Positions 18,580 through 31,697 of a stretch of DNA of 64,000 bases are shown piece by piece. The DNA lies in assembly GCA_964596395.1 (NCBI GenBank), contig CAZQSY010000005.1, positions 1,628 to 65,627 of the forward strand, read 5' to 3'. The stretch comes from an uncultured Candidatus Saccharibacteria bacterium (GTDB lineage: Bacteria > Patescibacteriota > Minisyncoccia > Phycocordibacterales > UBA9973). A program made the position numbers and the translations under genes. Below the pieces are notes generated by a model that had not been told where the DNA came from, ran no database searches, and worked only from the letters and a program-made list of their open reading frames with translations. Positions within the stretch are counted from its first letter, which is position 1; every line of letters begins with the position of its first letter.

Positions 18580-19569
18580 TCATATTAAGAACTCAATCAC
18601 ATCCCCATCCTTCACTATATATTCCCTCCCTTCGGTACGTACCAGGCCTTTCGCGCGGGCATTGGCGTAAGAGCCGGCGGTAAGCAAGTCTTGCCAGCCG
18701 ATTACTTCAGCGCGGATGAACTTTTCTTTGAAGTCGGTGTGAATGGCGGCGCCGGCCTCGGGAGCAGTGGAATTTTTCTTAATCGTCCAAGCTCTCGTCT
18801 CATCAACGCCCGTAGTGAAAAATGTTTCAAGCCCCAGGAGTTCGTAGCTCTTTTTTATGAGCTCGTCAAATCCTTTTTCAAAAACAGGGTCTATTTTTAC
18901 CGAAAGGCCTGAAATTTCTACCGGCAAGTTCTCGCTGGCTTCCGAGACATTCAGCACATAAAGCACCGGCTTTAAGGTAAGCAAGCCGAGTGATTTTATC
19001 TTCAGTTTTTCCTCCGGAGAAACCCCCGCTTCCGCGGCCATTTTCCCCTGTTCCAATTTCTCCTTCACCTTTTTCAAAACACTTTCCTCGGCCACCGCGG
19101 CCTTTTCCCCCCGCTTCACGTCTTTTTGCAAGTTTTCGATTCTTTTTGAAACGGTTTCCAGGTCGGCCAAGGCGAGTTCAAGATTTATCACTCCGATATC
19201 CTGCGCGGGGTCAACTTTGTTGGCGACATGAATTACCGAATTGTCTTGGAATGTCCGCACCACGTGCGCGATAGCGTCAACCTCGCGGATATTGGTGAGG
19301 AATTTGTTCCCCAGGCCCTCTCCCTTCGAAGCCCCGGCCACCAGGCCGGCGATATCCACAAATTCGACAACCGCTGGAATTGTCTTGGCCGATTTTGAAA
19401 ATTCTGAAAGCTTCCACAATCTTTCATCCGGCACAGGCACGATGCCGACCGAAGGGTCAATGGTGCAAAAAGGATAATTCTCAGCGGGCACGCTTTTTTT
19501 CGTCAGCGCGTTGAAAAGCGTGCTTTTCCCCACATTCGGCAGGCCGACGATTCCGATAGATAGCGACAT
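18580..19569 (-). CDS. ychF: Ribosome-binding ATPase YchF
   Basis: IGIVGLPNVGKSTLFNALTKK..ENYPFCTIDPSVGIVPVPDERL, FVDIAGLVAGASKGEGLGNKFLTNIRE, C-terminal TGS domain. Confidence 0.9.
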   Translation of the reverse strand: MSLSIGIVGLPNVGKSTLFNALTKKSVPAENYPFCTIDPSVGIVPVPDERLWKLSEFSKSAKTIPAVVEFVDIAGLVAGASKGEGLGNKFLTNIREVDAIAHVVRTFQDNSVIHVANKVDPAQDIGVINLELALADLETVSKRIENLQKDVKRGEKAAVAEESVLKKVKEKLEQGKMAAEAGVSPEEKLKIKSLGLLTLKPVLYVLNVSEASENLPVEISGLSVKIDPVFEKGFDELIKKSYELLGLETFFTTGVDETRAWTIKKNSTAPEAGAAIHTDFKEKFIRAEVIGWQDLLTAGSYANARAKGLVRTEGREYIVKDGDVIEFLI

Positions 19570-19631
19570 ACGAAGAGAAATATAGCAGAACCAGGGTGAA
19601 AAGTCATTTAGATTGAGTTATAATTAAAATT

Positions 19632-20201
19632 ATGAAAAATGCGATTCTCCTGCATGGCAGCTCGTCAACGCCAAACCACTTCTGGCTACCTTCGATAAAA
19701 AAATTCTTGGAAGAAAGAGATTATAGCGTGTGGGCGCCGCAACTTCCGGTGCCCGAGGCGCCGAATTTAGAATACCAGTTGCCTTTTGTTTTAGAGAACG
19801 GAACTTTCAACAGCGAAACAATAATGGTCGGTCACTCTTCGGGCTGCCCTTTGATTTTGGCGGTTTTGGAAAAAATAAACGTAAGAATTAAAAAAGCTGT
19901 TTTGGTGGCAGGCTTCGGTAGACCACTTCATAAAATGACCGACCCCGTACTTAAGAAATATGAAGGTGCTTTGCGTATAGCGAAGGAAGAATACGATTGG
20001 AAAAAAATAAAAAACAATGTAGAAGAAATTATATTCATAAATTCCGATAACGACCCTTGGGGTTGTAATGATGAAGAAGGAAGGTATATGCAAAAACATT
20101 TAGGCGGCAAGCTTATAGTAAACCACGAAGGTCATATGGGTTCAGAAATGAAAAATCAGCCATACAGAGAGTTCTCGCTTTTGGAAAAATTGCTGTCTTA
20201 A
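19632..20201 (+). CDS. Alpha/beta serine hydrolase, RBBP9/YdeN-like (PF06821)
   Basis: 189 aa with LLHGSSS and GHSSGC nucleophile elbow. Confidence 0.6.
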   Translation: MKNAILLHGSSSTPNHFWLPSIKKFLEERDYSVWAPQLPVPEAPNLEYQLPFVLENGTFNSETIMVGHSSGCPLILAVLEKINVRIKKAVLVAGFGRPLHKMTDPVLKKYEGALRIAKEEYDWKKIKNNVEEIIFINSDNDPWGCNDEEGRYMQKHLGGKLIVNHEGHMGSEMKNQPYREFSLLEKLLS

Positions 20202-20202
20202 A

Positions 20203-20436
20203 TTAAACGAGTTTCTTCAAATCCTCCTCGTATTTTTTCATTACCTCCATGCCGGCCGTTTGCTGGTCCACGCCACTTTTTATTTTTGCCTGTATTTCTT
20301 CAGCGATTTTTTTAAAAAGCTCGGGATTCTTTTCCATCATTTTGATAAACATATCAATCTGCGCCTCGGGCACACCCTGTTTGGCGAGCATCTTTTTTAA
20401 CAAAAAATTTTTGAACATTCCGCCAGTATAACACAA
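20203..20436 (-). CDS. small hypothetical helical protein
   Basis: 77-aa ORF, Lys/Glu-rich; no family recognised. Confidence 0.3.
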   Translation of the reverse strand: MCYTGGMFKNFLLKKMLAKQGVPEAQIDMFIKMMEKNPELFKKIAEEIQAKIKSGVDQQTAGMEVMKKYEEDLKKLV

Positions 20437-21879
20437 TTATTCATCCAATATCTTGAAATCACTACCGGGGACTATTTCGCGGCCGTGTGTGCGGATATAG
20501 TAAGCAAAAACGGCGCCTAAAGCCAAGAACGCGCCAAAGGCGACAATCGGCCAATAATTTGTTTTTCTTTCTTCTTTGCCGGAATTAATTTCTCCCACCT
20601 GCGCCAAAAGATTTTCGGGGGAAATTTCTGGTTCTAGATTTTCACGCAAAGGCTTAACTTCTGTATCCGCAAGAGATATCTTTGCGGACCTGGCGGAAGT
20701 CACTGCTTTCTTTGCCGGAACATACGCAAAAGATGGGTAATCAAACACCGTCTCGCCTAAAGAATTGGAAAGCACGAGAGTATCTTTGTCTCCTTCGGAA
20801 AAATTAGTAAGTTTTGAAGATACCGTTATTTTCGTTTTGGGCCTTATTATCGAATTTTTAGGAAAAACAAATTTCTTCCACGCGCTCGACAAAATCCAGC
20901 CGGAAACATCAGCTTCTACCGAAGTGTTGTTGGCAATTTCCACGAAGACATCCGCGCCGCTGCCGACATTTGAAATGACGATATCGTCTGAAACAACCTT
21001 CAAGGTAATTTTATCCGAAGTGTCGGGCGTTTCCGACATATAACTTTCAAAACAATCCAGAGTAACCACGTACTCGCCCGGGTACTCGTAAACATGAAAA
21101 TATTTTTCCGGAATCATGGGTTTTTTAGGCGTTTCAATAAAAGCGCCATCGCCGAAATTCCAAAAATATTTTCCGCAAAAATATTTCACGGTGTTTTCGG
21201 CTTTGAATTCCGTCGGCACGCCTGCGACCACCGAAGATTTGACGATAATTTTTGTTTTGTTCGGCAGGGGCTTAAGCGTCGGCTCTGTCTTGCCGCCGGA
21301 AGAGCCAGAGCTGCCACCGGAACTACCGGTGGTACTCTCGGTTTCATTTTTGTTTTCATCCCCACTATTATTCTCATTTTCCCCAGCCCCATCGCCCGAA
21401 TCTGTATTTTCTTCCCCCGGCGTTGGCGAAGCGGCAACCCAAGACCCGTCTATAAATTGAGAGGAATTGCCGTCTGTGGCAGAGCCGTCTATATTTACCG
21501 AACTTACCTCTTCCCCCGAAGAATTTTTCAGAATCACCGTGTCTGCCGAGACCTTTATATTAAGAGAACTTTTGAAAACCGGAAATGCCGCCGAGCTAAA
21601 GTCGGCCGGCACTTTGGCTACAATTCCAAAACCTTGCTTGGGAATCAAACTGGCGCCTGAATCGACAGCCGAAATCCCGTGGCCGTTGACCTGCGCGCCT
21701 GAATCCAAAATTTTATAAGTTGTTATATCTATATCCGAATCGGTATTGTTGTAAACCTCGACCCACTGGCTTGAGGTCGGAGAATATTTGACCTCGGTTA
21801 TAACAATACCCGCCCAAGCGACACCCCACCAAAAGAACAATGCGCATCCCACGACAAACGAGAGAATTCTTTTAGACAT
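20437..21879 (-). CDS. Cell-surface protein with two lamin-tail (LTD) domains, Gly/Ser-rich linker and C-terminal TM anchor
   Basis: Signal peptide. LTD signatures IVITEVKYSPTSSQWVEVYNNT...ITTYKILDSG and VISNVGSGADVFVEIANNT...VSGWILSS. C-terminal hydrophobic anchor WPIVAFGAFLALGAVFAYY. Confidence 0.6.
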   Translation of the reverse strand: MSKRILSFVVGCALFFWWGVAWAGIVITEVKYSPTSSQWVEVYNNTDSDIDITTYKILDSGAQVNGHGISAVDSGASLIPKQGFGIVAKVPADFSSAAFPVFKSSLNIKVSADTVILKNSSGEEVSSVNIDGSATDGNSSQFIDGSWVAASPTPGEENTDSGDGAGENENNSGDENKNETESTTGSSGGSSGSSGGKTEPTLKPLPNKTKIIVKSSVVAGVPTEFKAENTVKYFCGKYFWNFGDGAFIETPKKPMIPEKYFHVYEYPGEYVVTLDCFESYMSETPDTSDKITLKVVSDDIVISNVGSGADVFVEIANNTSVEADVSGWILSSAWKKFVFPKNSIIRPKTKITVSSKLTNFSEGDKDTLVLSNSLGETVFDYPSFAYVPAKKAVTSARSAKISLADTEVKPLRENLEPEISPENLLAQVGEINSGKEERKTNYWPIVAFGAFLALGAVFAYYIRTHGREIVPGSDFKILDE

Positions 21880-21901
21880 GGCTTTTAAAGGTTAAATTGT
21901 A

Positions 21902-21910
21902 TGGTATAAT
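21902..21910 (+). promoter_or_regulatory. Extended -10 (TGgTATAAT) 6 nt upstream of the pfkB ATG; likely leaderless start
   Basis: tgtaTGgTATAATaataccATG. The same architecture recurs before the RAYT gene and lepB. Confidence 0.35.
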
Positions 21911-21916
21911 AATACC

Positions 21917-22909
21917 ATGTCTAAATTAGATTTTCTCGCAATCGGCGACACAGTTATAGACGCTTTTATAAGAATCAAAGACGCGCACGTGCATTGCAAG
22001 CTAGACACGGCAAACTGCGAATTATGCTTCCGCTTCGGCGACAAAATACCGTATGAATCGCTCGAGGTTGTCCCGGCTGTGGGTAACAGCGCAAACGCGG
22101 CTGTGGCCGCGGCTCGGCTCGGGCTTTCTTCGGCATTAGTCGCAAACATCGGCAAAGACCGCGATGGCGACGACTGCCTTGTATCCCTGAAAAAAAACAA
22201 AGTGCTGACCAAATACATCACGGCAGAAAAAAACAAGAAAACAAATTACCACTACGTGCTGTGGTACGACACCGAACGAACAATCTTGATTAAACACACC
22301 GAATTTACATACAGCTTCCCGAAGATTAAAAATGTCTCTTGGGTTTATTTGAGTTCTCTCGCCGACCATTCTCTACCCTATCACGGGGAAATCGCGGAGT
22401 TTTTGAAAAAGAATCCAGAAACCAAGCTCGCCTTCCAGCCCGGTACCTTCCAAATGAAATTCGGCACGGAAGATCTCAAAGAAATTTACGAAAGAACGGA
22501 AGTATTTTTCTGCAATTTGGAAGAAGCGCAAAGAATTCTAAAAACCGAAGAGAAAGGTGTTTTAAAACTCTCGCAGGGCCTCGCTTCGCTCGGCCCCAAA
22601 ATGGTGGTAATAAGCGACGGACCGAACGGAGCGTACCTGTACATGAATGGCGAGCTCTGGCACCAGCCGATTTACCCCGACATCGCCCCGCCCTTTGAAC
22701 GCACCGGCGCGGGAGACGCTTTTTCCTCTACCATAACCTGCGCGCTCGCGCTCGGCAAAACCCCGCTTGAAGCTCTTGCCTGGGGACCGGTAAATTCAAT
22801 GTCGGTAGTGCAAAAAGTAGGCGCGCAAGCCGGCCTCCTTTCCCGCGAGAAATTAGAAGAATACCTCCGCACCGCGCCGGAGAGTTATAAACCGATAAAA
22901 ATAAGCTAG
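21917..22909 (+). CDS. PfkB-family carbohydrate/nucleoside kinase
   Basis: 330 aa. N-terminal LAIGDTVIDAF and C-terminal GAGDAFSSTITCALALG PfkB motif. Confidence 0.8.
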   Translation: MSKLDFLAIGDTVIDAFIRIKDAHVHCKLDTANCELCFRFGDKIPYESLEVVPAVGNSANAAVAAARLGLSSALVANIGKDRDGDDCLVSLKKNKVLTKYITAEKNKKTNYHYVLWYDTERTILIKHTEFTYSFPKIKNVSWVYLSSLADHSLPYHGEIAEFLKKNPETKLAFQPGTFQMKFGTEDLKEIYERTEVFFCNLEEAQRILKTEEKGVLKLSQGLASLGPKMVVISDGPNGAYLYMNGELWHQPIYPDIAPPFERTGAGDAFSSTITCALALGKTPLEALAWGPVNSMSVVQKVGAQAGLLSREKLEEYLRTAPESYKPIKIS

Positions 22910-22937
22910 CTTGCTGGTTTTCGTTTTAAAATATTTT

Positions 22938-22995
22938 CTACCGCCTCTTTTATGTCTTTCACCCCCCATCCCATAATGCTCTATAAGTTCGTTGG
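22938..22995. repeat. Direct repeat R1: frameshifted duplicate of a transketolase-C-like 3' end
   Basis: ctaccgcctcttttatgtctttcaccccccatccc... is ~85% identical to 23538-23594, exactly 600 bp away. Revcomp encodes ..NELIEHYGMGG(fs)VKDIKEAVENIL. Confidence 0.55.
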
Positions 22996-23036
22996 ATACG
23001 TTGACCTGTGTGCAAGAAATGTATTAAAATCATCTT

Positions 23037-23471
23037 ATGGACTTTAAAAAACATCTCGAAATTTTCTTACGTAACCCCCACAAAAAAAAAGAGGAATCAA
23101 AAGTATTAGATTGGGGTAGTTTGAAACTAGGCCCAGCGCCAGAAAATTTTAATCTTCCAGAGAATTATCTTTACAATTACGGTGCAGCACTAAATTTTTT
23201 AGAAAGAAAGTGTGATAAAAGCTGGAGACAAAATGAGGAAACCGGCAACTGGGAGGGCAAATATAAAGATTGCAATGTGATACTTTTTCCACCGAGAGTT
23301 CCGGAGGAGTTAAGTGACGGGAGTAAAGCTTTTCTGGATGAAAAATTCATGCAAGGAAATTATTTTCCAATGCTTAAGCATAAGGGCGGTAGTCAGGAGG
23401 ATTTTTTTGAGCTGCTGAGTATGCTAAAGAAAGAAAAACGCGCACTTGTTGACTTTGAAGTTCCTGACTAG
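23037..23471 (+). CDS. hypothetical protein (inserted cargo between duplicated tktC 3' fragments)
   Basis: 144 aa, no recognisable family. Shares a local ILFPPR...KAF..(E/K)F motif with the 237-aa gene at 35007-35720. Confidence 0.4.
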   Translation: MDFKKHLEIFLRNPHKKKEESKVLDWGSLKLGPAPENFNLPENYLYNYGAALNFLERKCDKSWRQNEETGNWEGKYKDCNVILFPPRVPEELSDGSKAFLDEKFMQGNYFPMLKHKGGSQEDFFELLSMLKKEKRALVDFEVPD

Positions 23472-23537
23472 CGGGACTAGCGAAAAATTCCTAAAAATAA
23501 CAGGGTTGGGGCTATTTTTTCTTTTTCAAAACCTTAC

Positions 23538-23594
23538 CTACCGCCTCTTTTATATCTTTCACCCCCATCCCGTAACACTCGATCAGTTCGTCGG
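23538..23594. repeat. Direct repeat R2: second copy of the tktC 3'-end motif, immediately downstream of the tktC stop
   Basis: Revcomp, out of frame with tktC, encodes KFCGQAPDELIECYGMGVKDIKEAVGKVLKKKK*. This echoes the genuine tktC terminus FGQSGLPAELLAHYHMDIVDIKRVV. Confidence 0.55.
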
Positions 23595-23618
23595 GGGCCT
23601 GCCCGCAAAACTTTGGGA

Positions 23619-24620
23619 CTAAAATTTTTTTCTCGTTATAACTTGCAGAACAACCCTTTTAATATCAACTATGTCCATGTGGTAGTGTGCCAGAAGTTCG
23701 GCGGGTAAACCGGATTGGCCGAACTTGTTTTGTACGCCGACGAATTCAATAGGTACCGGATAATTTTGCGCTAGAACTTCTGCTACAGCCCCACCCATGC
23801 CTCCCCTTACCTGATGCTCTTCTACTGTCACAACGGCTTTGCATTCTTTGGCCAGAGCTATCACAGCTCCTTCATCTATCGGCGAAATCGAAGACAAATT
23901 CATAACTTTGGTTTTTATTCCCTCTTGCTCAAGCTCTTTCGCCGCAACTAGCGCGCGGTAAAGTAACGCGCCGGTGGCGATTATACCCGCATCTGCAAGT
24001 CCGGCATCAGGTAACCAGTAAATTTGCGCCCTGCCGACTTCAAAAGATGTCTCTTCGGTGGTGATAATCGGCGTCTTTTCGCGAGCCAAGCGTAAATATG
24101 CCGGTTTTCTTGTTTTTGCCAACGCGATTGTCGCCTTTTTCGCTTCTATCGCATCGCACGGAGAAATGACGTCCATATTCGGGAGCGCCCGCATCATGGC
24201 AATATCTTCGAGCGCCTGGTGACTGCCGCCGTCAGGGCCCACCGAGATGCCGGCATGGCTCCCAACAATTACCACCTTCCTATCATTGTATGCGATCGTC
24301 GTCCGTATCTGTTCCCAATTTCGCCCGGGCGAAAAAGTCGCGTACGAAGAACAAAAAGGAATTTTTCCCATTGCCGCCATACCCGAGGCCACCGTCACCA
24401 AGTTCTGTTCGGCCACGCCGATTTCTACAAATCTTTCGGGGAATTTTTCTTTGAACAAATGCATCTGGGTGGACTCTGTCAAGTCCGCGCAAAGCGCGAC
24501 GACATTGCCATCCGCCTCCCCCGCCTTGAGCAACCCTTCCCCGAAACCTTTGCGTATCGGCGCCTGCTCAACATCATTACTGAAAATTTTTGGATTTAAT
24601 TTTAATTCCGGGTTTAACAT
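23619..24620 (-). CDS. tktC: Transketolase, C-terminal subunit (pyrimidine-binding plus C-terminal domains)
   Basis: 333 aa. PIRKGFGEGL, FVEIGVAEQNLV, SHAGISVGPDGGSHQALEDIA. Confidence 0.9.
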   Translation of the reverse strand: MLNPELKLNPKIFSNDVEQAPIRKGFGEGLLKAGEADGNVVALCADLTESTQMHLFKEKFPERFVEIGVAEQNLVTVASGMAAMGKIPFCSSYATFSPGRNWEQIRTTIAYNDRKVVIVGSHAGISVGPDGGSHQALEDIAMMRALPNMDVISPCDAIEAKKATIALAKTRKPAYLRLAREKTPIITTEETSFEVGRAQIYWLPDAGLADAGIIATGALLYRALVAAKELEQEGIKTKVMNLSSISPIDEGAVIALAKECKAVVTVEEHQVRGGMGGAVAEVLAQNYPVPIEFVGVQNKFGQSGLPAELLAHYHMDIVDIKRVVLQVITRKKF

Positions 24621-24651
24621 TCCATATATTCTAACACGTCACTTTTTTTAT

Positions 24652-24674
24652 ACTTGGAAGTCCGACTTCCAAGT
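24652..24674. repeat. REP-like 23-bp palindrome (copy C), left boundary of the RAYT/SDR insertion; overlaps the putative RAYT promoter
   Basis: ACTTGGAAGTCCGACTTCCAAGT, 31 bp upstream of the tktC start. Its TTGGAA (24654-24659) lies 17 bp upstream of TGgTATAAT (24674-24682). Confidence 0.8.
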
Positions 24675-24682
24675 GGTATAAT

Positions 24683-25315
24683 TTGGCTATGAGGAAACAT
24701 AAATTCGTGGAGGGAGAATACTACCACATATATAACCGTGGAACAGAAAAAAGAAAAATAATCCTAGACGAATACGACCTAGACCGTTTTCTAGAAAGCA
24801 TGAAAGAGTTCAACACATTAGAACCTATAGGAAGTATTTACGAACAATCTTTCATAAAAAAGGAACTTGGAAGTCCGACTTCCAAGTCCAAACTGGTATC
24901 AATAATATCCTACTGCATAAACCCAAACCATTTTCATATGCTGATTACTCCCCTAGTAGAAAAGGGGATAGAAAAGTTTATGCAAAGAATTGGTGGTTAT
25001 ACTAAATATTTTAACGAAAAATATAAAAGAAACGGGGTTCTGTTTCAAGGTAAATTTAAATCAAAACATGTCTATACAGATAATAGATATTTGCTTCACT
25101 TAAGCGCTTACATAAACATGAACAACCGCAACCGACTTGGAAGTCCGACTTCCAAGTTGAGTAAATCGAGCTTGGAAGAATACACTAAAGGCGAAAAGGG
25201 TATCTGTAACATGGATATAGTCTTGGGTCAGTTTGAAAACGGAAAAGAGTATCTAAGGTTTTCTTTGGAATCCTGGCAAGATACGCAGGAAAGAAAAAAA
25301 GCTCTTGAAATGTAA
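24683..25315 (+). CDS. REP-associated tyrosine transposase (RAYT; IS200/IS605-like HUH-Y1), carrying two in-frame REP copies
   Basis: YYHIYNRG (cf. RAYT YHVTQRG), HUH motif NPNHFHMLITP (cf. SNHVHLLLTP), GGYTKYFNEKYKRNGVLFQGKFKSKHVYTDNRYLLHLSAYIN (cf. YTRYINRRYGRTGHLWQGRFKS...EYLLACSRYIELNP). The likely true start is the ATG at 24689. Confidence 0.75.
   Translation: MAMRKHKFVEGEYYHIYNRGTEKRKIILDEYDLDRFLESMKEFNTLEPIGSIYEQSFIKKELGSPTSKSKLVSIISYCINPNHFHMLITPLVEKGIEKFMQRIGGYTKYFNEKYKRNGVLFQGKFKSKHVYTDNRYLLHLSAYINMNNRNRLGSPTSKLSKSSLEEYTKGEKGICNMDIVLGQFENGKEYLRFSLESWQDTQERKKALEM
24865..24887. repeat. REP-like palindrome (copy D), in-frame inside the RAYT gene
   Basis: ACTTGGAAGTCCGACTTCCAAGT encoding ELGSPTSK. 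Confidence 0.8.
25135..25157. repeat. REP-like palindrome (copy E), in-frame inside the RAYT gene
   Basis: ACTTGGAAGTCCGACTTCCAAGT encoding RLGSPTSKL, near the RAYT C-terminus. Confidence 0.8.
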
Positions 25316-25337
25316 CTTAGTACTTCGATTACTAAGT
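25315..25337. repeat. Degenerate REP-like 23-bp hairpin (15/23 identity to the REP) at the convergent RAYT/SDR junction
   Basis: ACTTAGTACTTCGATTACTAAGT has an 8-bp stem and 7-nt loop. It overlaps the RAYT stop and could act as a bidirectional terminator. Confidence 0.45.
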
Positions 25338-25339
25338 AC

Positions 25340-26080
25340 TTAGGTATGATATCCCTCCTGTATCTTCCGACCTTTTTTCAATACAAATACTTTACCGGTA
25401 ACCGCTTTCTTGCTTATACACAAACGTATGACAAACTTCGCTATTGCCTCGGGTGCAACCGTGTCACCAAGGTACTGTGGAAAATATTTTTTGTAGGCTT
25501 CAGTTGCAGTGTCAGAAGGAGAAATACAATTCACGCTTATTTTTTTATTTTTGAGTTCTTCCGCTAATCCAACTGTTAAATCTTCAATCCCTCTCTTTGA
25601 GACAAAATAAGGCAACCAACCCTTAGCACCGTTTTCAAATGTACCGGATACATTTAAAATTTTTGACCCTACTGGCATTACAGGAATGAAAGCATGAGCC
25701 AGAAGTGTAGGAGCGATCAATCCGACACAATACGTGTCAACTATGACTTGAGGATTAAAAGTTTCAAAATCTTTATTGGCATATACTTCATTTGCACCAT
25801 GCCAAATACCCGCGACATTAATTAAAAAACTAACATCTTTGTTTAATTTTTTAATCTTTTTAATGGTTTTATTAATTGAATCTACTCTGCTTAAATCTGT
25901 AACAAAATGTACACTTTTTCCGCCAATATTCTTTATCAATTTATTAGTTTCCACCAATTTTTTCTTTGTTCGAGCGATAAGAATAACCTCGATCCCCTCT
26001 TTTGCCATGGCAACAGAAACAGCCTTGCCAATTCCTGTACTGGCACCTGTAATAATCGCTAACTTATTTTTAAATTTCAT
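25340..26080 (-). CDS. Short-chain dehydrogenase/reductase (SDR)
   Basis: MKFKNKLAIITGASTGIGKA (TGxxxGxG), NVAG, catalytic Y..K (YFVSK). The ORF-track N-terminal extension merely reads through REP copy F; the true start is the ATG at 26080. Confidence 0.8.
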   Translation of the reverse strand: MKFKNKLAIITGASTGIGKAVSVAMAKEGIEVILIARTKKKLVETNKLIKNIGGKSVHFVTDLSRVDSINKTIKKIKKLNKDVSFLINVAGIWHGANEVYANKDFETFNPQVIVDTYCVGLIAPTLLAHAFIPVMPVGSKILNVSGTFENGAKGWLPYFVSKRGIEDLTVGLAEELKNKKISVNCISPSDTATEAYKKYFPQYLGDTVAPEAIAKFVIRLCISKKAVTGKVFVLKKGRKIQEGYHT

Positions 26081-26090
26081 AAATCTAGTC

Positions 26091-26113
26091 ACTTGGAAGT
26101 CGGACTTCCAAGT
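26091..26113. repeat. REP-like palindrome (copy F, centre G = inverted orientation), right boundary of the RAYT/SDR insertion
   Basis: ACTTGGAAGTCGGACTTCCAAGT, 2 bp after the tktN stop and 10 bp before the SDR start. Confidence 0.8.
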
Positions 26114-26114
26114 A

Positions 26115-26975
26115 CTATTGATGCTCGCTTTTAATTTTGCCGCCCAAAGTGCGGAGCTCGGCGAGCGCCATTTCGGCTTCTTCTTTCGAAGGCGGTTTGC
26201 CGTGCCACTTGTAATCCCTTTCAAATTCTTTCACGCCTCTGCCCGGAATCGTATGCGCGATAATTACAGTCGGCTTTTCTTCTACAGATTGCGCTTCACT
26301 TACTGCTTGATTCAAAGCCATAAAATCATGCCCTGAAACTTCTATCACGTGCCAGTTAAAACTTTTCCATTTGTCCGCCAGCGGCTCAAGCGGCATGATG
26401 TTTTCGGTAAAGCCGTCTATCTGAATGTTGTTTCTGTCAACAACCGCGATTAAATTTCTCAACTTATTTTTCCCGGCAAACATAATCGCTTCCCAGGAAT
26501 TCCCTTCATCAAGCTCACCGTCAGACATGAAGCAATACACGAATCTGTCTCTGTCTTTGCCGTTCATTTTATCCGCCAAAGCCATGCCGGATGCCTGCGC
26601 GAGGCCCGAGCCGAGCGGCCCCGAAGAATTCTCGAGCCAGGGCATAAATTCCCGATGCGGGTGGCCCTGCAGGCGGCTGCCGAACTTGCGCAAAGTTGAA
26701 AGCTCTTCAAGGGGAAAATACCCTGCGTGCGCCATAGTCGCGTACAAAACTGGCGCTATGTGCCCGTTTGAGAGCACAAATCTGTCCCGCTCCTCCCAGG
26801 AAGGATTCTTCGGGTCATGTTTTAAGACGTGAAAATAAAAAAGGGCGAAAATATCGGCCATCCCGAGCGGCCCGGCCGTGTGCCCGCTCCCCGCTTCAAG
26901 GAGCATTTCAATTATGCTCTTTCTGATTTCGTTTGCTTTCTCCTCCAGAAATTTAATTTTCTCATCGGTCAACAT
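26115..26975 (-). CDS. tktN: Transketolase, N-terminal subunit (TPP-binding)
   Basis: 286 aa. SGHTAGPLGMADIFALFYFHVL, GHIAPVLYA, GPLGSGLAQASGMA, DGELDEGNSWEA. Confidence 0.9.
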   Translation of the reverse strand: MLTDEKIKFLEEKANEIRKSIIEMLLEAGSGHTAGPLGMADIFALFYFHVLKHDPKNPSWEERDRFVLSNGHIAPVLYATMAHAGYFPLEELSTLRKFGSRLQGHPHREFMPWLENSSGPLGSGLAQASGMALADKMNGKDRDRFVYCFMSDGELDEGNSWEAIMFAGKNKLRNLIAVVDRNNIQIDGFTENIMPLEPLADKWKSFNWHVIEVSGHDFMALNQAVSEAQSVEEKPTVIIAHTIPGRGVKEFERDYKWHGKPPSKEEAEMALAELRTLGGKIKSEHQ

Positions 26976-27677
26976 TTATAGATTCTTAAATTCTTCAATC
27001 TTCTCAATTATATCATCCGCCCTGAAAATCGCCGAACCGATGATGAGTTTCGTCGCTCCCGCGTCTATCAGTTTAGGAGCGGTTTCTTCGTTTACGCCGA
27101 TATCAACCGCCGCGGACATATCCGGAAATTTTTCCCTGAAACTTTTAATCTTCTCGTACACTTTTTCATCGAGTTCTATCCCTACCCCTTGATACCCTAT
27201 TTTGTCGTTGCCCATAAATTGTACAAAGTCAATCAGCGGAACAAGCGAAGAAATTTCTTCGTTAGGGGTAGCAGGGCTTAGAGCCAGACCAAAATTAATG
27301 CTGTCTCGAACATAGTTATCAATACTTTCCAAAAAATTTCTGAATTCTTTCTCGTCACCCACTGCTTCCATGTGAAAGACAACCGCTTTTGGTCCAAGTT
27401 TTGCGTAAATGTCAAAATTTTCTACTGCGTCTTTAACCAACAGATCAAGCTCGAAATCAATATCTTCCCAAAAAGGCATACCTTCTTCTTCATTCAGGAT
27501 TTTTTTGAAATGCGGGTCGGCGTCTCTTTCAGAAGCGAAGGGCCAGGTCCTAGAAGGCACGAAAATCCCATCGCAGATATCTATCTGCACAGAGGGAACC
27601 AACCCGCGCACCAGCGCAATTTTGTTTTTCAATTCTTCGTAGTCCCTGACCAGAATGGAAGGAATTATTTCCGCCAT
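26976..27677 (-). CDS. rpe: Ribulose-phosphate 3-epimerase family protein
   Basis: IIPSILVRDYEELKNKI...VQIDICDGIFVP and C-terminal VDIGVN..AGATKLIIGSAIF match the Rpe TIM barrel. Adjacent to rpiB and tkt. Confidence 0.6.
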   Translation of the reverse strand: MAEIIPSILVRDYEELKNKIALVRGLVPSVQIDICDGIFVPSRTWPFASERDADPHFKKILNEEEGMPFWEDIDFELDLLVKDAVENFDIYAKLGPKAVVFHMEAVGDEKEFRNFLESIDNYVRDSINFGLALSPATPNEEISSLVPLIDFVQFMGNDKIGYQGVGIELDEKVYEKIKSFREKFPDMSAAVDIGVNEETAPKLIDAGATKLIIGSAIFRADDIIEKIEEFKNL

Positions 27678-27679
27678 GG

Positions 27680-28156
27680 CTAATCAAATTTTATCGCGTC
27701 AATCTTGGCAAGCCGGCGCACATGCCGCTCGTCACCTGAAAAAGGAGTGTTGAGCCAAAGCTTGACCGCTTCAATCGCGTCTTCTTCGGTGAAATATCTG
27801 GCCCCGAGCGAAAGAATGTTTGAATTGTTGTGCTGTCTGGAGCGAATTATAATATTTGATTCGTCGTCTACGACCGGCACGGCGTTCCCGTAATCAACGA
27901 CAGCCCGCACATACGGAAACCTGTTCGCGGCCATGGCCTCGCCTTCGCCGGTTCCGCCCAGAATTATCCCGCGGAGATTTTCTGGGTCTTTTGACACCTC
28001 TCTGGCCACCGGAATTATAAAGTCGGGATAATCATCTGCCTCATTGTATTCGTACGCGCCCTTGTCCACGACTTCGTGCCCCTCCCCTTTCAAAAAAGAC
28101 ACGATTCTCTCTTTGAGCACATATCCCGCGTGGTCGGTGCCTATGAAAATTTTCAT
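27680..28156 (-). CDS. rpiB: Ribose-5-phosphate isomerase B
   Basis: 158 aa. MKIFIGTDHAGYVLKE...GIILGGTGEGEAMAANRFPYVRAV matches the RpiB/LacAB family. Confidence 0.9.
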   Translation of the reverse strand: MKIFIGTDHAGYVLKERIVSFLKGEGHEVVDKGAYEYNEADDYPDFIIPVAREVSKDPENLRGIILGGTGEGEAMAANRFPYVRAVVDYGNAVPVVDDESNIIIRSRQHNNSNILSLGARYFTEEDAIEAVKLWLNTPFSGDERHVRRLAKIDAIKFD

Positions 28157-28812
28157 ACCGTTATTTTATCATTGCGCAGTTCAGAAAACAAAGCCACCGT
28201 TCTTCCGAAGTCCTTTTCGGCAACGATAAAAATGAATTCAGTCGGCGTCGACACGAGCTCTTCTATGTTGATGCCGGCCCGGGCAGTGACGGAAAGAAGG
28301 GAAAAGAAAGTGTTCGGCATGCCGAACACGCTGGGGAAAAGGGATATGCCGATGGCTGCCAGCCCGCGGTTTTTTATTTTCGGCTTCATTTTGAAGTGTT
28401 TCAAGATTCTGCTTTCCAGATTTGAAGAACAGATGATGTCGGTCTCGGTCGTGCCTATGGTAATCGTGAGAAAATCTTCTCCGGAGACGGAAATATTTTT
28501 GTGGAGCGACTCAAGCTCGAGTATAAACCGGCCGGTTTTTTCGTAAACCAGCTCGGAGAGGGGCAATCTGGTTGAGATATTTTTTATGTCCACGCTGTAT
28601 ATCATCGGCGTCCCCCGCTTGAGCTCCTTCTTGAGTCGCGACAGGGATACCACCAAACTCGCAATCGTGACTTTTTTTCTGGCCAGGGCTTCTACCTTTT
28701 CACGAATGCGATACGCGTAACTCGACATATTCATATAGCCGTTGGTAAGCGCGAAATAGGCCTCGATTTCCCGAAGCATTGTTTCCCGTACGGCCGATTG
28801 TATCTTTATCAC
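28153..28812 (-). CDS. ACT-domain-containing regulatory protein (aspartokinase regulatory-domain-like)
   Basis: GMPNTFFSLLSVTARAGINIEELVSTPTEF resembles an ACT ligand-binding motif. Confidence 0.35.
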   Translation of the reverse strand: MIKIQSAVRETMLREIEAYFALTNGYMNMSSYAYRIREKVEALARKKVTIASLVVSLSRLKKELKRGTPMIYSVDIKNISTRLPLSELVYEKTGRFILELESLHKNISVSGEDFLTITIGTTETDIICSSNLESRILKHFKMKPKIKNRGLAAIGISLFPSVFGMPNTFFSLLSVTARAGINIEELVSTPTEFIFIVAEKDFGRTVALFSELRNDKITV

Positions 28813-28906
28813 ACCAGATATTCTAACATATTTAACAAAAAGTTAAAAAGGAAATATTAATGTTAAAAAACTTAAACAAAGAGAAAAAACCCGTATCATA
28901 TAAAAA

Positions 28907-29827
28907 ATGAAAAAAATAAACGAAGACAGGGGTCTGCTCGATACCATAGGCAACACCCCGCTGGTGAGAGTTCCCTTCGGCGGTCCGGCCGATATTTTCG
29001 CCAAGCTTGAATATCTGAATCCCGGCGGCAGCATCAAAGACCGTCCGGCTCTTTTTATGATTGAGGAAGCCGAGAAAAAGGGCCTGCTCAAACCGGGCGG
29101 GACGATTATCGAGGCCTCTTCGGGGAACCAAGGAATCGCCGTCGCCATGATCGGCGCGGTCAAAGGGTACAAAGTAATCATCGCCGTTTCGGAAAAAGTG
29201 AGCGAAGAAAAAGTGAAAACCCTCAAGGCCTACGGCGCGAAGGTCGTCGTATGCCCCGCCGTACCGCTCGAAAACCCCGAGAACTATCACAACATACCAG
29301 AAAAATTAAGCCGGGAAATTCCAAATTCGTTCGTACCGAACCAATATTACAACCTGTCTAATCCGAAAGCGCATTATTCTACTCTGGGCCCCGAAATCTG
29401 GCGCCAGACCGAAGGCCGCATCACTCACCTCTTTGCGCCGGCCGGCACCGGCGGCACAGTAAGCGGCACGGGAAGATTCCTGAAAGAACAAAACCCGAAA
29501 ATAAAAATTCTGGCGGTGGATGTGGATACGTCTTTCCACTCGACCGGCGGGGAGCCGAAACCCTACCAGATGGAAGGCATCGGCATTGATTTCGAAACCC
29601 CGGTACTCGATGAATCCGTCATAGACGAATTCCTGCCCGTTTCAGACGAGCAGAGCTTCGCGATGCTTAAAATCATGGCCTCGAAATACGGTCTGCTTCT
29701 CGGCGGGTCGGGGGGCGCGGTAGCGCACGCGGCCTGGAATTACCGGGAAAAATTAAAAGAGGGCGACCTAGCGGTGATGATTTTTAGCGACTCCGGCCGA
29801 GCGTATTTGTCAAAGAATTATTTTTAA
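28907..29827 (+). CDS. cysK: Cysteine synthase (O-acetylserine sulfhydrylase), PLP-dependent
   Basis: IGNTPLVRV, LEYLNPGGSIKDRPALFMI (PLP lysine), EASSGNQGIA, GTGGT. Confidence 0.85.
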   Translation: MKKINEDRGLLDTIGNTPLVRVPFGGPADIFAKLEYLNPGGSIKDRPALFMIEEAEKKGLLKPGGTIIEASSGNQGIAVAMIGAVKGYKVIIAVSEKVSEEKVKTLKAYGAKVVVCPAVPLENPENYHNIPEKLSREIPNSFVPNQYYNLSNPKAHYSTLGPEIWRQTEGRITHLFAPAGTGGTVSGTGRFLKEQNPKIKILAVDVDTSFHSTGGEPKPYQMEGIGIDFETPVLDESVIDEFLPVSDEQSFAMLKIMASKYGLLLGGSGGAVAHAAWNYREKLKEGDLAVMIFSDSGRAYLSKNYF

Positions 29828-29830
29828 ATC

Positions 29831-30637
29831 ATGGTTGAATTCTACAAATACCACGGCGCGGGGAACGACTTTGTCATGATTGACAATCGTGACGGGAAAT
29901 TCAACATCCAAGATGCTGAAAAAATAAAATCGCTGTGCCACCGGCGCTTCGGTATCGGTGCCGACGGCGTGATCGCTCTGAGAAATCATCCCAATTATGA
30001 CTTCGAGATGGAATATGCAAACAGCGACGGCAGTATAGGTGCCATGTGCGGGAACGGCGGGCGTTGCGCGGCGCATTTCGCGCACTACGTTTTGAAAATC
30101 ACAAAAGACACGAAGCGCGTGAAGTTTTTAGCGGCCGACGGAGAGCACGAGGCGGAGATTCTGGCAGGCGGCAAAATAAAATTAAAGATGCTCGATATCG
30201 GCGAAATCGGGGAACGCAGCGGCCTACCCTTTCTTCATTGTGGCACGACGCCGCACAGCGTAATGTTTGTGGAGAACTTGGATAAATTTCCTGTCTTTGA
30301 AACAGGGCGAAAAATCAGGTACTCGCACCCCGAAGGCACCAATGTCAACTTCGTCGAAATCGCGGGCAATATCGTGAACGTGCGCACGTACGAGAGGGGT
30401 GTTGAAGACGAAACGCTCGCCTGCGGCACCGGCGCGACGTCGGTAGCCGTGATATGCCACGAGCTCGGCAAAATAAAAGGAAATTCATGCCGCATCAAAA
30501 TGCCGGGCGGCGAACTGACCGTAGAGTTTGAATATTCATCTTCATCCAGGCAAGGCCTAGATAAAGATAAGCGTGAATACAAAAACATCTGGCTCACTGG
30601 CCCAGCCGTGTGCGTGTTTAAGGGAGAAATAAAATAA
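29831..30637 (+). CDS. dapF: Diaminopimelate epimerase
   Basis: FYKYHGAGNDFVMID and the two catalytic Cys motifs CGNGGRCAAHFA and ACGTGATS. Confidence 0.9.
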   Translation: MVEFYKYHGAGNDFVMIDNRDGKFNIQDAEKIKSLCHRRFGIGADGVIALRNHPNYDFEMEYANSDGSIGAMCGNGGRCAAHFAHYVLKITKDTKRVKFLAADGEHEAEILAGGKIKLKMLDIGEIGERSGLPFLHCGTTPHSVMFVENLDKFPVFETGRKIRYSHPEGTNVNFVEIAGNIVNVRTYERGVEDETLACGTGATSVAVICHELGKIKGNSCRIKMPGGELTVEFEYSSSSRQGLDKDKREYKNIWLTGPAVCVFKGEIK

Positions 30638-30640
30638 TTT

Positions 30641-31657: not shown

Positions 31658-31697
31658 ATTTTAAATTATATCAAAAGCCCCAAAAAGTGCTATCATA

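What the first reader, a model, noticed from the sequence alone, without database searches (positions are those of the whole stretch)
22938..23594. Small hypothetical gene flanked by 600-bp-spaced duplicated fragments of the tktC 3' end
R2 (23538-23594) begins 25 bp past the tktC stop. In another frame it re-encodes a tktC-like terminus, ..KFCGQAPDELIECYGMGVKDIKEAVGKVL*, compared with the genuine ..KFGQSGLPAELLAHYHMDIVDIKRVV. R1 (22938-22995), exactly 600 bp away, is a frameshifted third copy. Between them lies an opposite-strand 144-aa gene of unknown function. The pattern looks like an integration into a gene 3' end that regenerated or duplicated the terminus.
Basis: seen in the sequence. 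Interest (0 to 1): 0.55.

Follow-up and report, generated by a model that had tools for sequence, protein, structure and literature searches.

The report
Stacked displaced ends of transketolase gene
Behind the working transketolase gene of a tiny uncultured (Nomurabacteria-like) bacterium lie two leftover copies of the gene's last ~30 codons, which shows that imported DNA has twice given the gene a new end and pushed the old end (once with a small orphan gene) downstream; this is an instructive scar of gene exchange, not a new molecular machine.

Summary
The repeat is real. A ~72-nt direct repeat (22924-22995 / 23524-23594; 80-85% identity, one 1-nt indel) flanks a 144-aa ORFan on the strand opposite tktC. 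Both copies are former 3' ends of tktC. R1's stop codon overlaps the pfkB stop, exactly as functional tktC/pfkB stops do in four relatives, so R1 is the original terminus left in place. R2 is a second, still intact terminus. The terminus now in use ("tail B", ..PAELLAHYHMD..) is the newcomer. The gene body is closest to relatives whose tails are of the R1/R2 type. From the FGQSG codons onward it is closest to an unrelated lineage (breakpoint P = 1e-7 to 5e-4, uncorrected). Tail B occurs in four scattered Nomurabacteria lineages. In each it is followed by a displaced tail joined through the same odd junction (K-F/L-C-G-Q-A-P), and each displaced tail resembles that lineage's own relatives. A fifth genome has a Y1-transposase gene flanked by duplicated tails. 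No integrase, att-like core, RNA structure or recoding signal was found. Best reading: nested C-terminal displacement at a tktC-pfkB insertion hotspot, by recombination anchored in the conserved gene body. This resembles icd/e14 and rhs orphan arrays, but in a housekeeping gene. Moderately interesting.

The parts
21917..22909 (+). pfkB-family sugar kinase, convergent with tktC. It is the conserved downstream neighbour.
   Evidence: Pfam PfkB, E = 7e-29. A convergent pfkB follows tktC in most of the ~90 related loci.
22906..22996 (-). R1: displaced, frameshifted former tktC terminus (SNELIEHYGMG / VKDIKEAVENILKRKPAS*). Its stop codon (22906-22908) overlaps the pfkB stop (22907-22909) by 2 nt. 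Inferred to be the original terminus, still in place.
   Evidence: The same 2-nt overlap of stop codons is seen for functional tktC/pfkB pairs in L004, L033, L034 and L069. It has an extra G in the G-run (C6 at 22962-22967 on the + strand).
23001..23030 (+). Promoter-like site (TTGACC-18-TAAAAT, 10 of 12) that ends 6 nt before the ATG of the 144-aa ORF.
   Evidence: This is a consensus match only: 1 site found against 1.6 expected in shuffles, so it is weak evidence.
23037..23471 (+). 144-aa ORFan, the cargo of the older insertion. Low GC (35-40%) against 45-57% in the flanking core genes. Function unknown.
   Evidence: No Pfam, PHROG or PADLOC match. It matched only itself among 5.8e9 clusters and 1.84e9 representatives; the one other hit is a repeat artefact. 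No match in phages, plasmids or viral contigs.
23512..23613 (-). R2: intact displaced tktC terminus (KFCGQAPDELIECYGMGVKDIKEAVGKVLKKKK*). It lies in the -1 frame relative to tktC and begins 5 nt after the tktC stop.
   Evidence: The tail is of the type GMGVKDIKEAV, as in the closest gene-body relatives P0004, P0005 and L002. The junction K-F/L-C-G-Q-A-P is shared with L084-87, L089 and, in degenerate form, L088.
23619..23723 (-). Terminus of tktC now in use ('tail B': FGQSGLPAELLAHYHMDIVDIKRVVLQVITRKKF*). Inferred to be horizontally imported.
   Evidence: It is the most divergent tail of 41 homologues: 41% identity to the consensus, against 86% for the body. Nucleotide identity to L084 is 0.80-0.81 here against ~0.72 in the body. 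Identity to L082, L083 and L002 is 0.56-0.59 here against ~0.76 in the body. The best breakpoint lies at gene nt 873-900, with uncorrected P from 9e-8 to 5e-4.
23619..24620 (-). tktC (C-terminal subunit of a split transketolase), a mosaic gene.

Best explanation
R1 and R2 are two successively displaced former 3' ends of tktC, stacked behind the gene. Originally tktC ran into pfkB with overlapping stop codons, and that terminus is R1. In the first event, DNA from a related Nomurabacteria-like donor recombined into the conserved body of tktC. It carried the donor's own terminus (R2) plus a low-GC 144-aa gene lying downstream of it. Its far end joined just upstream of the resident terminus, which was pushed ~600 bp downstream and began to decay (frameshift). 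In the second event, a different terminus ('tail B') entered in the same way and pushed R2 5 nt beyond the new stop codon. Tail B travels between lineages as a small insertion. Its left homology arm is the gene body. Its right homology arm is the displaced tail that follows it, which pairs with the recipient's own functional tail. This is why every recipient keeps a displaced tail that looks native, attached to the same foreign junction. No dedicated recombinase is needed. The founding events would be homology-anchored illegitimate joins, and later spread would be ordinary double-crossover homologous recombination. The repeats have no function of their own. The 144-aa gene is passenger cargo in a hypervariable tktC-pfkB gap. 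Shown here: the repeats are tkt termini, the position of R1, the mosaic structure, the scattered distribution of tail B, and the shared junction. Inferred: the order of events, the direction of transfer, and the recombination mechanism.
For: (1) Both repeats translate to the family's C-terminal consensus. (2) R1's stop overlaps the pfkB stop by 2 nt, the same geometry as functional genes in L004, L033, L034 and L069. In relatives the tktC-pfkB gap ranges from -4 nt to more than 1 kb and holds unrelated ORFs. (3) The gene is a mosaic. The body is nearest to P0005, P0004 and L002 (84-86% aa), whose tails are GMGVKDIK(E/K)AV, the same type as R1 and R2. The tail is nearest to the P0014 group. In the L083/L084 comparison, informative sites split 104:66 upstream of gene nt 900 and 1:22 downstream of it. 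(4) Tail B occurs in four body lineages (window, P0014/28/75, P0052, P0017). Their nearest body neighbours almost all carry tail A: all four listed neighbours for three of the lineages, and two of four for P0017. The other tail-B bodies rank 13th to 137th of 198, with one exception: the window and P0017 bodies are comparatively close to each other (ranks 30 and 2). Between L084 and L089, tail B is 93% identical in DNA against 78% for the body. (5) All four lineages have a displaced tail directly behind tail B, joined by the same aberrant junction. Each displaced tail carries the residues typical of that lineage's nearest relatives, for example GMGKNS(V/I)KEAV in L084 and L089 and GMGVGDIKKAVEKIL in L088. 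(6) R1 and R2 are no more alike (0.80 over 69 nt) than each is to the functional tails of other species (0.72-0.84). In the conserved first 18 codons, 4 of the 6 codons that differ are synonymous, so the two copies diverged as working genes in different genomes. (7) L002 shows the same architecture with different cargo: tail, then a Y1-transposase gene, then a displaced tail followed by a candidate hairpin-plus-T-run terminator that I read by eye and did not scan. (8) The insert has foreign base composition.
Against: No donor genome and no sibling strain without the inserts was found. The closest tktC is only 83% identical, so the order of events and the direction of transfer are inferred. Three independent junction types (R1, the tail-B junction, L002_B) all fall within the ~25 nt that code for K-F-G-Q-S-G-T-P. 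Random illegitimate joins do not predict this, and it hints at a preferred break or recombination site. The tail-B junction looks like a degenerate direct repeat of that same site, which would also fit a site-specific process. The polarity of the older event could be reversed: R1 plus the end of pfkB could be the imported part, anchored in pfkB. All comparison sequences are metagenome assemblies. The breakpoint P values are not corrected for ~130 scanned positions; the weakest pair would then be about 0.06. Natural competence and recombination in this organism were not examined.
Confidence: 0.6

Rival explanations
1. This is the decayed remnant of a site-specific integrative element (phage or island) whose attachment site is the tktC 3' end and which carries a replacement terminus, as e14 and phage 21 do in E. 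coli icd. R1 and R2 would be attR and attL, and the 144-aa gene would be all that is left of the element.
For: A duplicated gene terminus flanks foreign low-GC DNA. The repeats differ in the way that attP-borne and chromosomal copies do. Repeated events at the same ~25-nt site in three junction types suggest site preference. Identical stretches of 16 and 29 nt exist inside the repeat and could serve as a core.
Against: There is no integrase or recombinase in the insert or in the annotated 14 kb around it. The insert is 600 bp with a single ORFan. The tail-B event carries no cargo at all. None of ~30 variable tktC-pfkB gaps in relatives looked like a recombinase when I read ten of the largest ORFs by eye; no Pfam scan was run on them. 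The ORFan has no match in phage, plasmid or viral collections.
Confidence: 0.17
2. The process is nuclease-driven homing. A nuclease cuts the conserved FGQSG-coding site. Candidates are the neighbouring Y1/HUH protein, a restriction enzyme acting on the GGCC and CCGG sites there, or the ORFan itself. Repair then copies in a cut-resistant replacement tail plus cargo and leaves the old tail behind. This would resemble free-standing homing-endonuclease genes that bring a replacement C-terminus (Allomyces mitochondrial atp6; recalled from memory, not checked here).
For: All junctions cluster at the FGQSG codons, and the motif is destroyed in every displaced copy: KFCGQA, KF-KL-DEL and R1. In L002 a Y1/HUH gene lies between the duplicated tails. 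A Y1 gene lies 66-88 nt upstream of tktC in the window, L082, L011, L023 and L088. Tail B is scattered across lineages as a selfish element would be.
Against: The ORFan has no nuclease motif or family match. The Y1-associated palindrome is absent from 22900-23620. The position of the Y1 gene is not consistent among tail-B lineages; L084 has none adjacent. IS200-type Y1 enzymes are not known to make such duplications (my own knowledge). The clustering of junctions may be partly an ascertainment effect, because shorter displaced tails would not have been detected.
Confidence: 0.1
3. The 3' end was duplicated locally (by slippage or unequal crossing-over) and the copies then diverged in place. 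No foreign DNA was involved in making the repeats.
For: This is the simplest way to obtain tandem copies. The tktC/R2 pair is directly tandem, with a 5-nt spacer.
Against: Tail B and R2 share no detectable DNA similarity. The gene is a mosaic with a significant breakpoint. The displaced tails match each lineage's own relatives while tail B does not. R1 and R2 are as divergent as orthologues yet are still, or nearly, open reading frames. The DNA between R1 and R2 is not duplicated and is compositionally foreign.
Confidence: 0.04
4. The extra tails are functional. Either they are translated by frameshifting or stop-codon read-through to give a TktC isoform with a second tail, or they are kept as silent cassettes for switching tails.
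For: In the window R2 is open and in the -1 frame directly after a slippery A-AAA-AAA-TTT-TAG, with the -1 frame open across the junction. Displaced tails are intact ORFs in all four tail-B lineages.
Against: The frame relation is not conserved. It is -1 in the window and L084, in frame after one stop in L088, and in frame after two stops in L089. L084 has no slippery run. In L088 the junction is shifted by 1 nt relative to its tail. R1 is frameshifted. Intact short ORFs are expected if the events are recent (tail B is 93% identical between L084 and L089). The RNA shows no unusual fold (z = -0.45 and -0.08).
Confidence: 0.03

Closest known systems
e14 / phage 21 integration into E. coli icd, leaving the icdC C-terminal pseudogene (Hill et al. 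1989, as described in PMC13626634)
   Same: Foreign DNA sits inside the 3' end of a housekeeping metabolic gene. The incoming DNA supplies a slightly different replacement terminus. The original C-terminal fragment survives as a pseudogene on the far side.
   Different: e14 is a 15-kb prophage with its own integrase and an SOS-inducible excision system. Here the insert is 600 bp with one ORFan, or no cargo at all in the case of tail B, and no recombinase. There are two stacked displaced tails. The replacement tail is shared among unrelated lineages.
C-terminal displacement with strings of orphan 3' regions in rhs, cdiA and T6SS effector loci (Jackson et al. 2009, cited in PMC5361080; Kirchberger et al. 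2017, PMC5361080)
   Same: There is a constant 5' gene body. New 3' tips arrive by horizontal transfer, and the old tips are shifted downstream as orphans that keep a piece of the conserved junction. The arrays then spread by homologous recombination. Homology-facilitated illegitimate recombination is the proposed founding mechanism.
   Different: Those tips are polymorphic toxins with cognate immunity genes under diversifying selection. Here the gene is a transketolase subunit, the alternative tails are ordinary variants of the same C-terminal segment, the only cargo is an ORFan on the opposite strand, and no selective reason for swapping is evident.
Homology-facilitated illegitimate recombination in naturally transformable bacteria (de Vries & Wackernagel 2002; Prudhomme et al. 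2002; Meier & Wackernagel 2003; as cited in PMC5361080 and PMC3240628)
   Same: One end of the incoming DNA is anchored by homology (the tktC body) and the other end joins without homology, trapping foreign DNA next to the anchor.
   Different: That mechanism was established experimentally in Acinetobacter, Streptococcus and Pseudomonas. Here it is inferred only from sequence scars. The clustering of joints at one 25-nt site is not a known feature of it.
Mobile ORF plus replacement C-terminus in Allomyces macrogynus mitochondrial atp6 (Paquin, Laforest & Lang 1994; recalled from memory, not checked here)
   Same: An inserted element carries a foreign copy of the gene's C-terminal coding part together with an ORF. 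The resident C-terminus remains downstream as a pseudogene.
   Different: In that case the ORF is a recognisable endonuclease and the genome is mitochondrial. The 144-aa ORF here has no recognisable motif.

Membership tests
Integrase-mediated integrative element with attB in a gene 3' end (e14/icd type) | A direct repeat of the target gene's 3' end flanks the inserted DNA. | tested here: met
   R1 and R2 flank 23037-23471.
Integrase-mediated integrative element with attB in a gene 3' end (e14/icd type) | A tyrosine or serine recombinase is encoded in or next to the insert. | tested here: not met
   The only ORF in the insert has no family match. The genes in 19441-33471 include no integrase; the only mobile-element gene is a Y1_Tnp 1 kb away on the other side of tktC.
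Integrase-mediated integrative element with attB in a gene 3' end (e14/icd type) | A short identical core (crossover site) is shared by the two repeats and recurs at the same place in independent insertions. | tested here: inconclusive
   Identical runs of 16 and 29 nt exist within the repeat. However, these lie in the most conserved coding stretch of all tails, and no empty site or free attP is available for comparison.
C-terminal displacement arrays (rhs / cdiA / T6SS effector type) | A constant gene body has horizontally exchanged 3' tips whose distribution conflicts with the phylogeny of the body. | tested here: met
   The conflict was judged from nearest-neighbour ranks and breakpoint tests, not from a full recombination-aware tree.
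C-terminal displacement arrays (rhs / cdiA / T6SS effector type) | Orphan 3' fragments are stacked downstream and begin at the conserved junction. | tested here: met
   R2 and R1 in the window, and displaced tails in L084-87, L088, L089 and L002, all begin at or near the KFGQSGTP codons.
C-terminal displacement arrays (rhs / cdiA / T6SS effector type) | The tips are toxin domains, each followed by a cognate immunity gene. | tested here: not met
   The gene is a transketolase C-terminal subunit. The tails are variants of the normal terminus. ORF144 is on the opposite strand and matches no PADLOC or Pfam family. So the window is an architectural analogue, not a member.
Transposase-generated target-site duplication | Short flanking repeats are identical at birth, with terminal inverted repeats and a transposase. 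| tested here: not met
   The repeats are ~72-90 nt and only 80-85% identical, as divergent as orthologues. No inverted repeats bound the unit. The window's 23-nt palindrome is absent from 22900-23620.
Homology-facilitated illegitimate recombination product | One border lies in homologous sequence (a mosaic breakpoint) and the other border is a non-homologous joint. | tested here: inconclusive
   The homologous border is supported. The far joints are aberrant sequence at the FGQSG codons, but without the donor the joint cannot be defined.
Homology-facilitated illegitimate recombination product | The host takes up and recombines foreign DNA (competence and RecA pathway). | not tested
   Competence and recombination genes were not surveyed in the window.

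The most novel reading that the evidence does not exclude
Tail B is a minimal selfish 'mobile gene end'. It would be a ~125-nt module (replacement terminus, stop codon, and a degenerate copy of the FGQSG-coding site) that homes into the conserved FGQSG-coding site of tktC in unrelated Nomurabacteria. It would possibly be helped by a nuclease acting at that site, and the same site would also capture cargo such as the 144-aa ORFan or a Y1-transposase gene. That would be a mobile element whose only payload is the end of an essential gene.
Probability: 0.12. Interest if true: 0.7.

Novelty: new variant of a known kind. Interest (0 to 1): 0.42.

Why it matters
Scars that record the order and the borders of gene-transfer events are rare in Candidate Phyla Radiation bacteria, which cannot be manipulated genetically. 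This locus preserves three successive versions of one gene end in a single genome. The same replacement tail sits in four lineages, each beside that lineage's own displaced tail. This gives direct sequence evidence that these reduced genomes exchange short gene segments by recombination anchored in conserved housekeeping genes. It also shows that new orphan genes enter at such anchors. And it shows that 'C-terminal displacement', so far described for toxin loci, also happens to an ordinary metabolic gene with no evident arms-race reason. On the practical side, such displaced tails can mislead gene callers and phylogenies that use tkt. The locus is also a natural marker for tracking recombination among Nomurabacteria populations.

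Tried and rejected
1. Function of the 144-aa ORF. Pfam, PHROGs and PADLOC gave nothing, even at permissive thresholds. The word-indexed search of 5.8e9 clusters and the full HMMER scan of 1.84e9 representatives returned only the protein itself, plus one 2068-aa repeat protein whose score is the sum of weak repeat matches. The single-sequence AlphaFold model had pLDDT 40, so no fold search was run. tblastn against phages and plasmids and the viral-contig scan found nothing.

2. Recoding. The -1 frame and the A7T4 run at the tktC/R2 junction looked like a frameshift site. I rejected this because the frame relation and the stop-codon context differ in L084, L088 and L089.

3. Structured RNA or terminator role for the repeats. 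Rfam gave only a chance-level hit. The folds are no better than shuffled sequence. No terminator-like site lies in the repeats.

4. Link to the Y1-transposase palindrome. No copy of the palindrome lies in or at the borders of the R1-R2 unit, so the window's cassette is not a Y1/palindrome element, although the one in L002 is.

5. Wider distribution of the tail-B junction. An exact-pattern scan of JGI metagenomes returned only the already known P0014 lineage plus chance matches.

6. Closer relatives. None is above 83% aa identity, so no empty-site or intermediate genome could be found.

7. Strain variation in the displaced tail of the P0014 lineage. There is none (0 differences in the 1,400-bp tktC-to-pfkB stretch compared, L084 5001-6400), so no test of selection was possible.

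8. A longer, decayed 5' extension of R1 (to about 23030) was suggested by a MAFFT alignment. By manual count it is about 50% identical and I do not count it as established.
Full report
OBSERVATION. The repeat finder returned 22924-22966 / 23524-23566 (86%, spacing 600) and 22963-22995 / 23562-23594 (82%, spacing 599). The two halves are separated by a C6 run against a C5 run. A local alignment joins them into one ~78-nt match. The 29-nt core occurs exactly twice in the 64 kb, with none expected in shuffles. On the minus strand R2 reads KFCGQAPDELIECYGMGVKDIKEAVGKVLKKKK* (23613-23512). R1 reads SNELIEHYGMG, then a +1 shift, then VKDIKEAVENILKRKPAS* (22996-22906). Between the repeats lies a 144-aa ORF on the + strand (23037-23471). 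tktC (23619-24620, -) and pfkB (21917-22909, +) are confirmed by Pfam. A Logan re-assembly of run SRR15237813 is identical over 14 kb that include the region.

WHOSE GENOME. The 80 closest tktC loci in the GTDB species set are metagenome-assembled genomes, mostly labelled Nomurabacteria or Paceibacteria (Patescibacteria/CPR) or auto-labelled 'uncultured Candidatus Saccharibacteria'. The best is 80-81% identical in protein. Among 5.8e9 protein clusters the best is 83%. So there is no close sibling genome, and all comparisons are between species.

THE REPEATS ARE FORMER TERMINI, AND THE TERMINUS NOW IN USE IS THE ODD ONE. Related TktC proteins mostly end ..FGQSGTPDELIEHYGMG(K/V)..IKEAVKKVLKRKI. 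R1 and R2 fit this pattern. The window's real tail..FGQSGLPAELLAHYHMDIVDIKRVVLQVITRKKF, is the most divergent of 41 homologues: 41% identity to the consensus after FGQSG, against 86% before it. The window's gene body is closest to P0005, P0004 and L002 (84-86%), whose tails are GMGVKDIK(E/K)AV, the subtype of R1 and R2. In DNA, identity to L082, L083 and L002 is about 0.76 along the body and falls to 0.56-0.59 in the last 100 nt. Identity to L084 is about 0.72 in the body and rises to 0.80-0.81 at the end. A maximum-chi-square type scan places the breakpoint at gene nt 873-900, which is at the FGQSG codons (window ~23721-23748). In the L083/L084 comparison the informative sites split 104:66 upstream and 1:22 downstream. 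Uncorrected P ranges from 9e-8 to 5e-4 over six triplets.

R1 IS THE ORIGINAL TERMINUS, STILL IN PLACE. R1's stop codon (22906-22908, minus strand) overlaps the pfkB stop (22907-22909) by 2 nt. Functional tktC and pfkB genes have exactly this overlap in L004, L033, L034 and L069, and they abut within a few nt in L010, L015 and L070. Across ~90 loci pfkB is the usual convergent neighbour. The gap varies from -4 nt to more than 1 kb, and the larger gaps hold ORFs that are mostly unrelated to each other and to ORF144. I read ten of the larger ones by eye and saw no recombinase among them, but I did not scan them against Pfam. The tktC-pfkB junction is therefore an insertion hotspot whose ancestral state has no intergenic DNA.

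TAIL B IS A TRAVELLING GENE END. The motif PAELLA(H/Y)YHMD occurs in four body lineages: the window; P0014/P0028/P0075 (12 contigs from several samples); P0052; and P0017. Their bodies are 81-85% identical to each other. Each has closer relatives with ordinary tails (85-90%), and the nearest neighbours of three of them all carry tail A, as do two of the four listed for P0017. The other tail-B bodies rank 13th to 137th of 198. The exception is the window/P0017 pair, which rank 30th and 2nd for each other. By contrast, another divergent tail type (HYKMDV.DI.LAVEK) clusters with its own kind and looks vertically inherited. Between L084 and L089, tail B is 93% identical in DNA (97-98% in its first 90 nt) against 78% for the body. 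In all four lineages tail B is followed at once by a second tail. In the window this is R2. In L084-87 it is KLCGQAPNEFIEHYGMGKNSVKEAVKKVLKRKI*. In L089 it is KLCGQAPDELVEHYGMGKNSIKEAVQRVLKRKV*. In L088 it is ..ASPEELLTHYGMGVGDIKKAVEKILERK*. The junction (AAGTTKTGCGGGCARGC.., which reads K-F/L-C-G-Q-A in place of K-F-G-Q-S-G-T) is the same aberrant sequence in all four, so it arose once. Downstream of the junction, however, each displaced tail carries the residues typical of that lineage's own nearest relatives. The simplest account is that tail B spreads as a ~125-nt heterologous insertion. Its homology arms are the gene body on the left and the displaced tail on the right, and the right arm recombines with the recipient's working tail.

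THE R2-ORF144-R1 UNIT. R1 and R2 are 0.80 identical over the 69 nt common to all tails. This is no more than R1 against the working tails of L083 (0.84) or L082 (0.80), or R2 against L082 (0.78). In the conserved first 18 codons, 4 of the 6 differing codons are synonymous. So the two copies were already different when they were brought together: one is resident and one is imported. The DNA between them has 35-40% GC, against 45-57% for the neighbouring core genes. It contains one ORF with strand-appropriate purine skew and a promoter-like site ending 6 nt before its ATG. That ORF has no relative anywhere. L002, a close relative, offers an independent parallel. Its tktC tail is followed by a Y1 (IS200-like) transposase gene bracketed by its own palindrome. 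After that comes a displaced tail, DELIEHYGMGVKDIKKAVKRVLKIKTG*, with what looks by eye like a hairpin-plus-T-run terminator; I did not scan it. The two L002 tails are 75-80% identical.

MECHANISM. I found no recombinase in or near the unit, no inverted repeats at its borders, no copy of the window's 23-nt palindrome within it, no RNA family or unusual fold, and no consistent recoding context. The data fit nested C-terminal displacement. Incoming DNA is anchored by homologous recombination in the conserved tktC body. Its far end joins upstream of the resident terminus, either illegitimately in the founding event or through the displaced tail acting as a homology arm in later transfers. Because tktC and pfkB originally overlapped, any insertion that keeps both genes intact must bring or duplicate a terminus. 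This is the mechanism proposed for orphan 3' regions at rhs and T6SS loci (PMC5361080). The outcome resembles icd/icdC around prophage e14 (PMC13626634). One feature stays unexplained. All three independent junction types (R1, the tail-B junction and L002_B) fall within the ~25 nt coding for KFGQSGTP, and the motif is destroyed in each displaced copy. This may reflect crossovers being favoured in the most conserved block, together with my inability to detect very short displaced tails. It also leaves room for a site-preferring process, which I keep as rival hypotheses (integrase remnant 0.17, nuclease homing 0.10).

VERDICT. The feature is a stack of recombination scars with one passenger ORFan, not a working device. 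It is a new variant of a known kind: C-terminal displacement, or terminus-regenerating insertion, seen here in a housekeeping gene of a CPR bacterium. The added finding is a replacement tail shared by four lineages. Interest is moderate (0.42).

Noticed in passing
window 14041-14063 and 14341-14363 (inside the 992-aa ORF at 13136-16114, minus strand): Two copies of the 23-nt palindrome ACTTGGAAGTCCGACTTCCAAGT lie in frame inside a long ORF that looks like a leucyl-tRNA synthetase (named from its sequence by eye, not scanned). Each copy encodes LGSRTSKL. This is reminiscent of Rickettsia palindromic elements, which insert into coding genes.
   Followed up: partly
window 24652-25315 and 26091-26113; L082 4284-4966; L002 7000-7760: A Y1_Tnp (IS200-like) gene (24683-25315, +) has its species-specific palindrome 8 nt upstream of the start and twice in frame inside the ORF (encoding LGSPTSK). 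A fourth copy lies beyond the neighbouring SDR gene. The ~80%-identical orthologue in L082 has four palindromes at the same relative places, but with both stem arms changed (a compensatory change shared by all copies). The more distant L002 Y1 gene has a different palindrome at the same position in the protein and at its stop codon.
   Followed up: partly
window 24621-26114: tktN and tktC are adjacent in many relatives (gap often under 30 nt). Here they are split by ~1.5 kb of low-GC DNA (33-40%) that carries the Y1 gene and a short-chain dehydrogenase gene (25340-26110, -). The SDR gene sits between the Y1 stop and the fourth palindrome, as if it were a passenger inside the Y1/palindrome unit.
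   Followed up: partly
L011, L023, L082, L088 and the window: 66-88 nt upstream of tktC: Orthologous Y1 genes (74-80% aa identity) occupy the same position, divergent from tktC, in five lineages whose tktC bodies are not each other's closest relatives. This reflects either old residence or repeated targeting of the tktN-tktC spacer.
   Followed up: no
L082 (ENA k141_122204), 3' end of the locus: The contig of the closest relative ends 78 nt after the tktC stop. This would be expected if strain variation or a repeat at the tktC-pfkB hotspot breaks the assembly.
   Followed up: no
L002 5176-5193 (tktN): The tktN of L002 has a 5-residue insertion (..NPLGSPIGEERD.. against ..NPSWEERD.. in the window). 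Its DNA (CTAGGAAGTCCTATTGGG) resembles half of the window-type palindrome, so it may be a decayed in-frame palindrome insertion.
   Followed up: no
related loci L021, L025, L028, L038, L072 and others, between tktC and pfkB: The tktC-pfkB gap holds lineage-specific ORFs of very different kinds. Read by eye only, these include an amidase-like protein, membrane and coiled-coil proteins, a nucleotidyltransferase-like protein and a 767-aa surface-type protein. Almost none are related to each other.
   Followed up: partly
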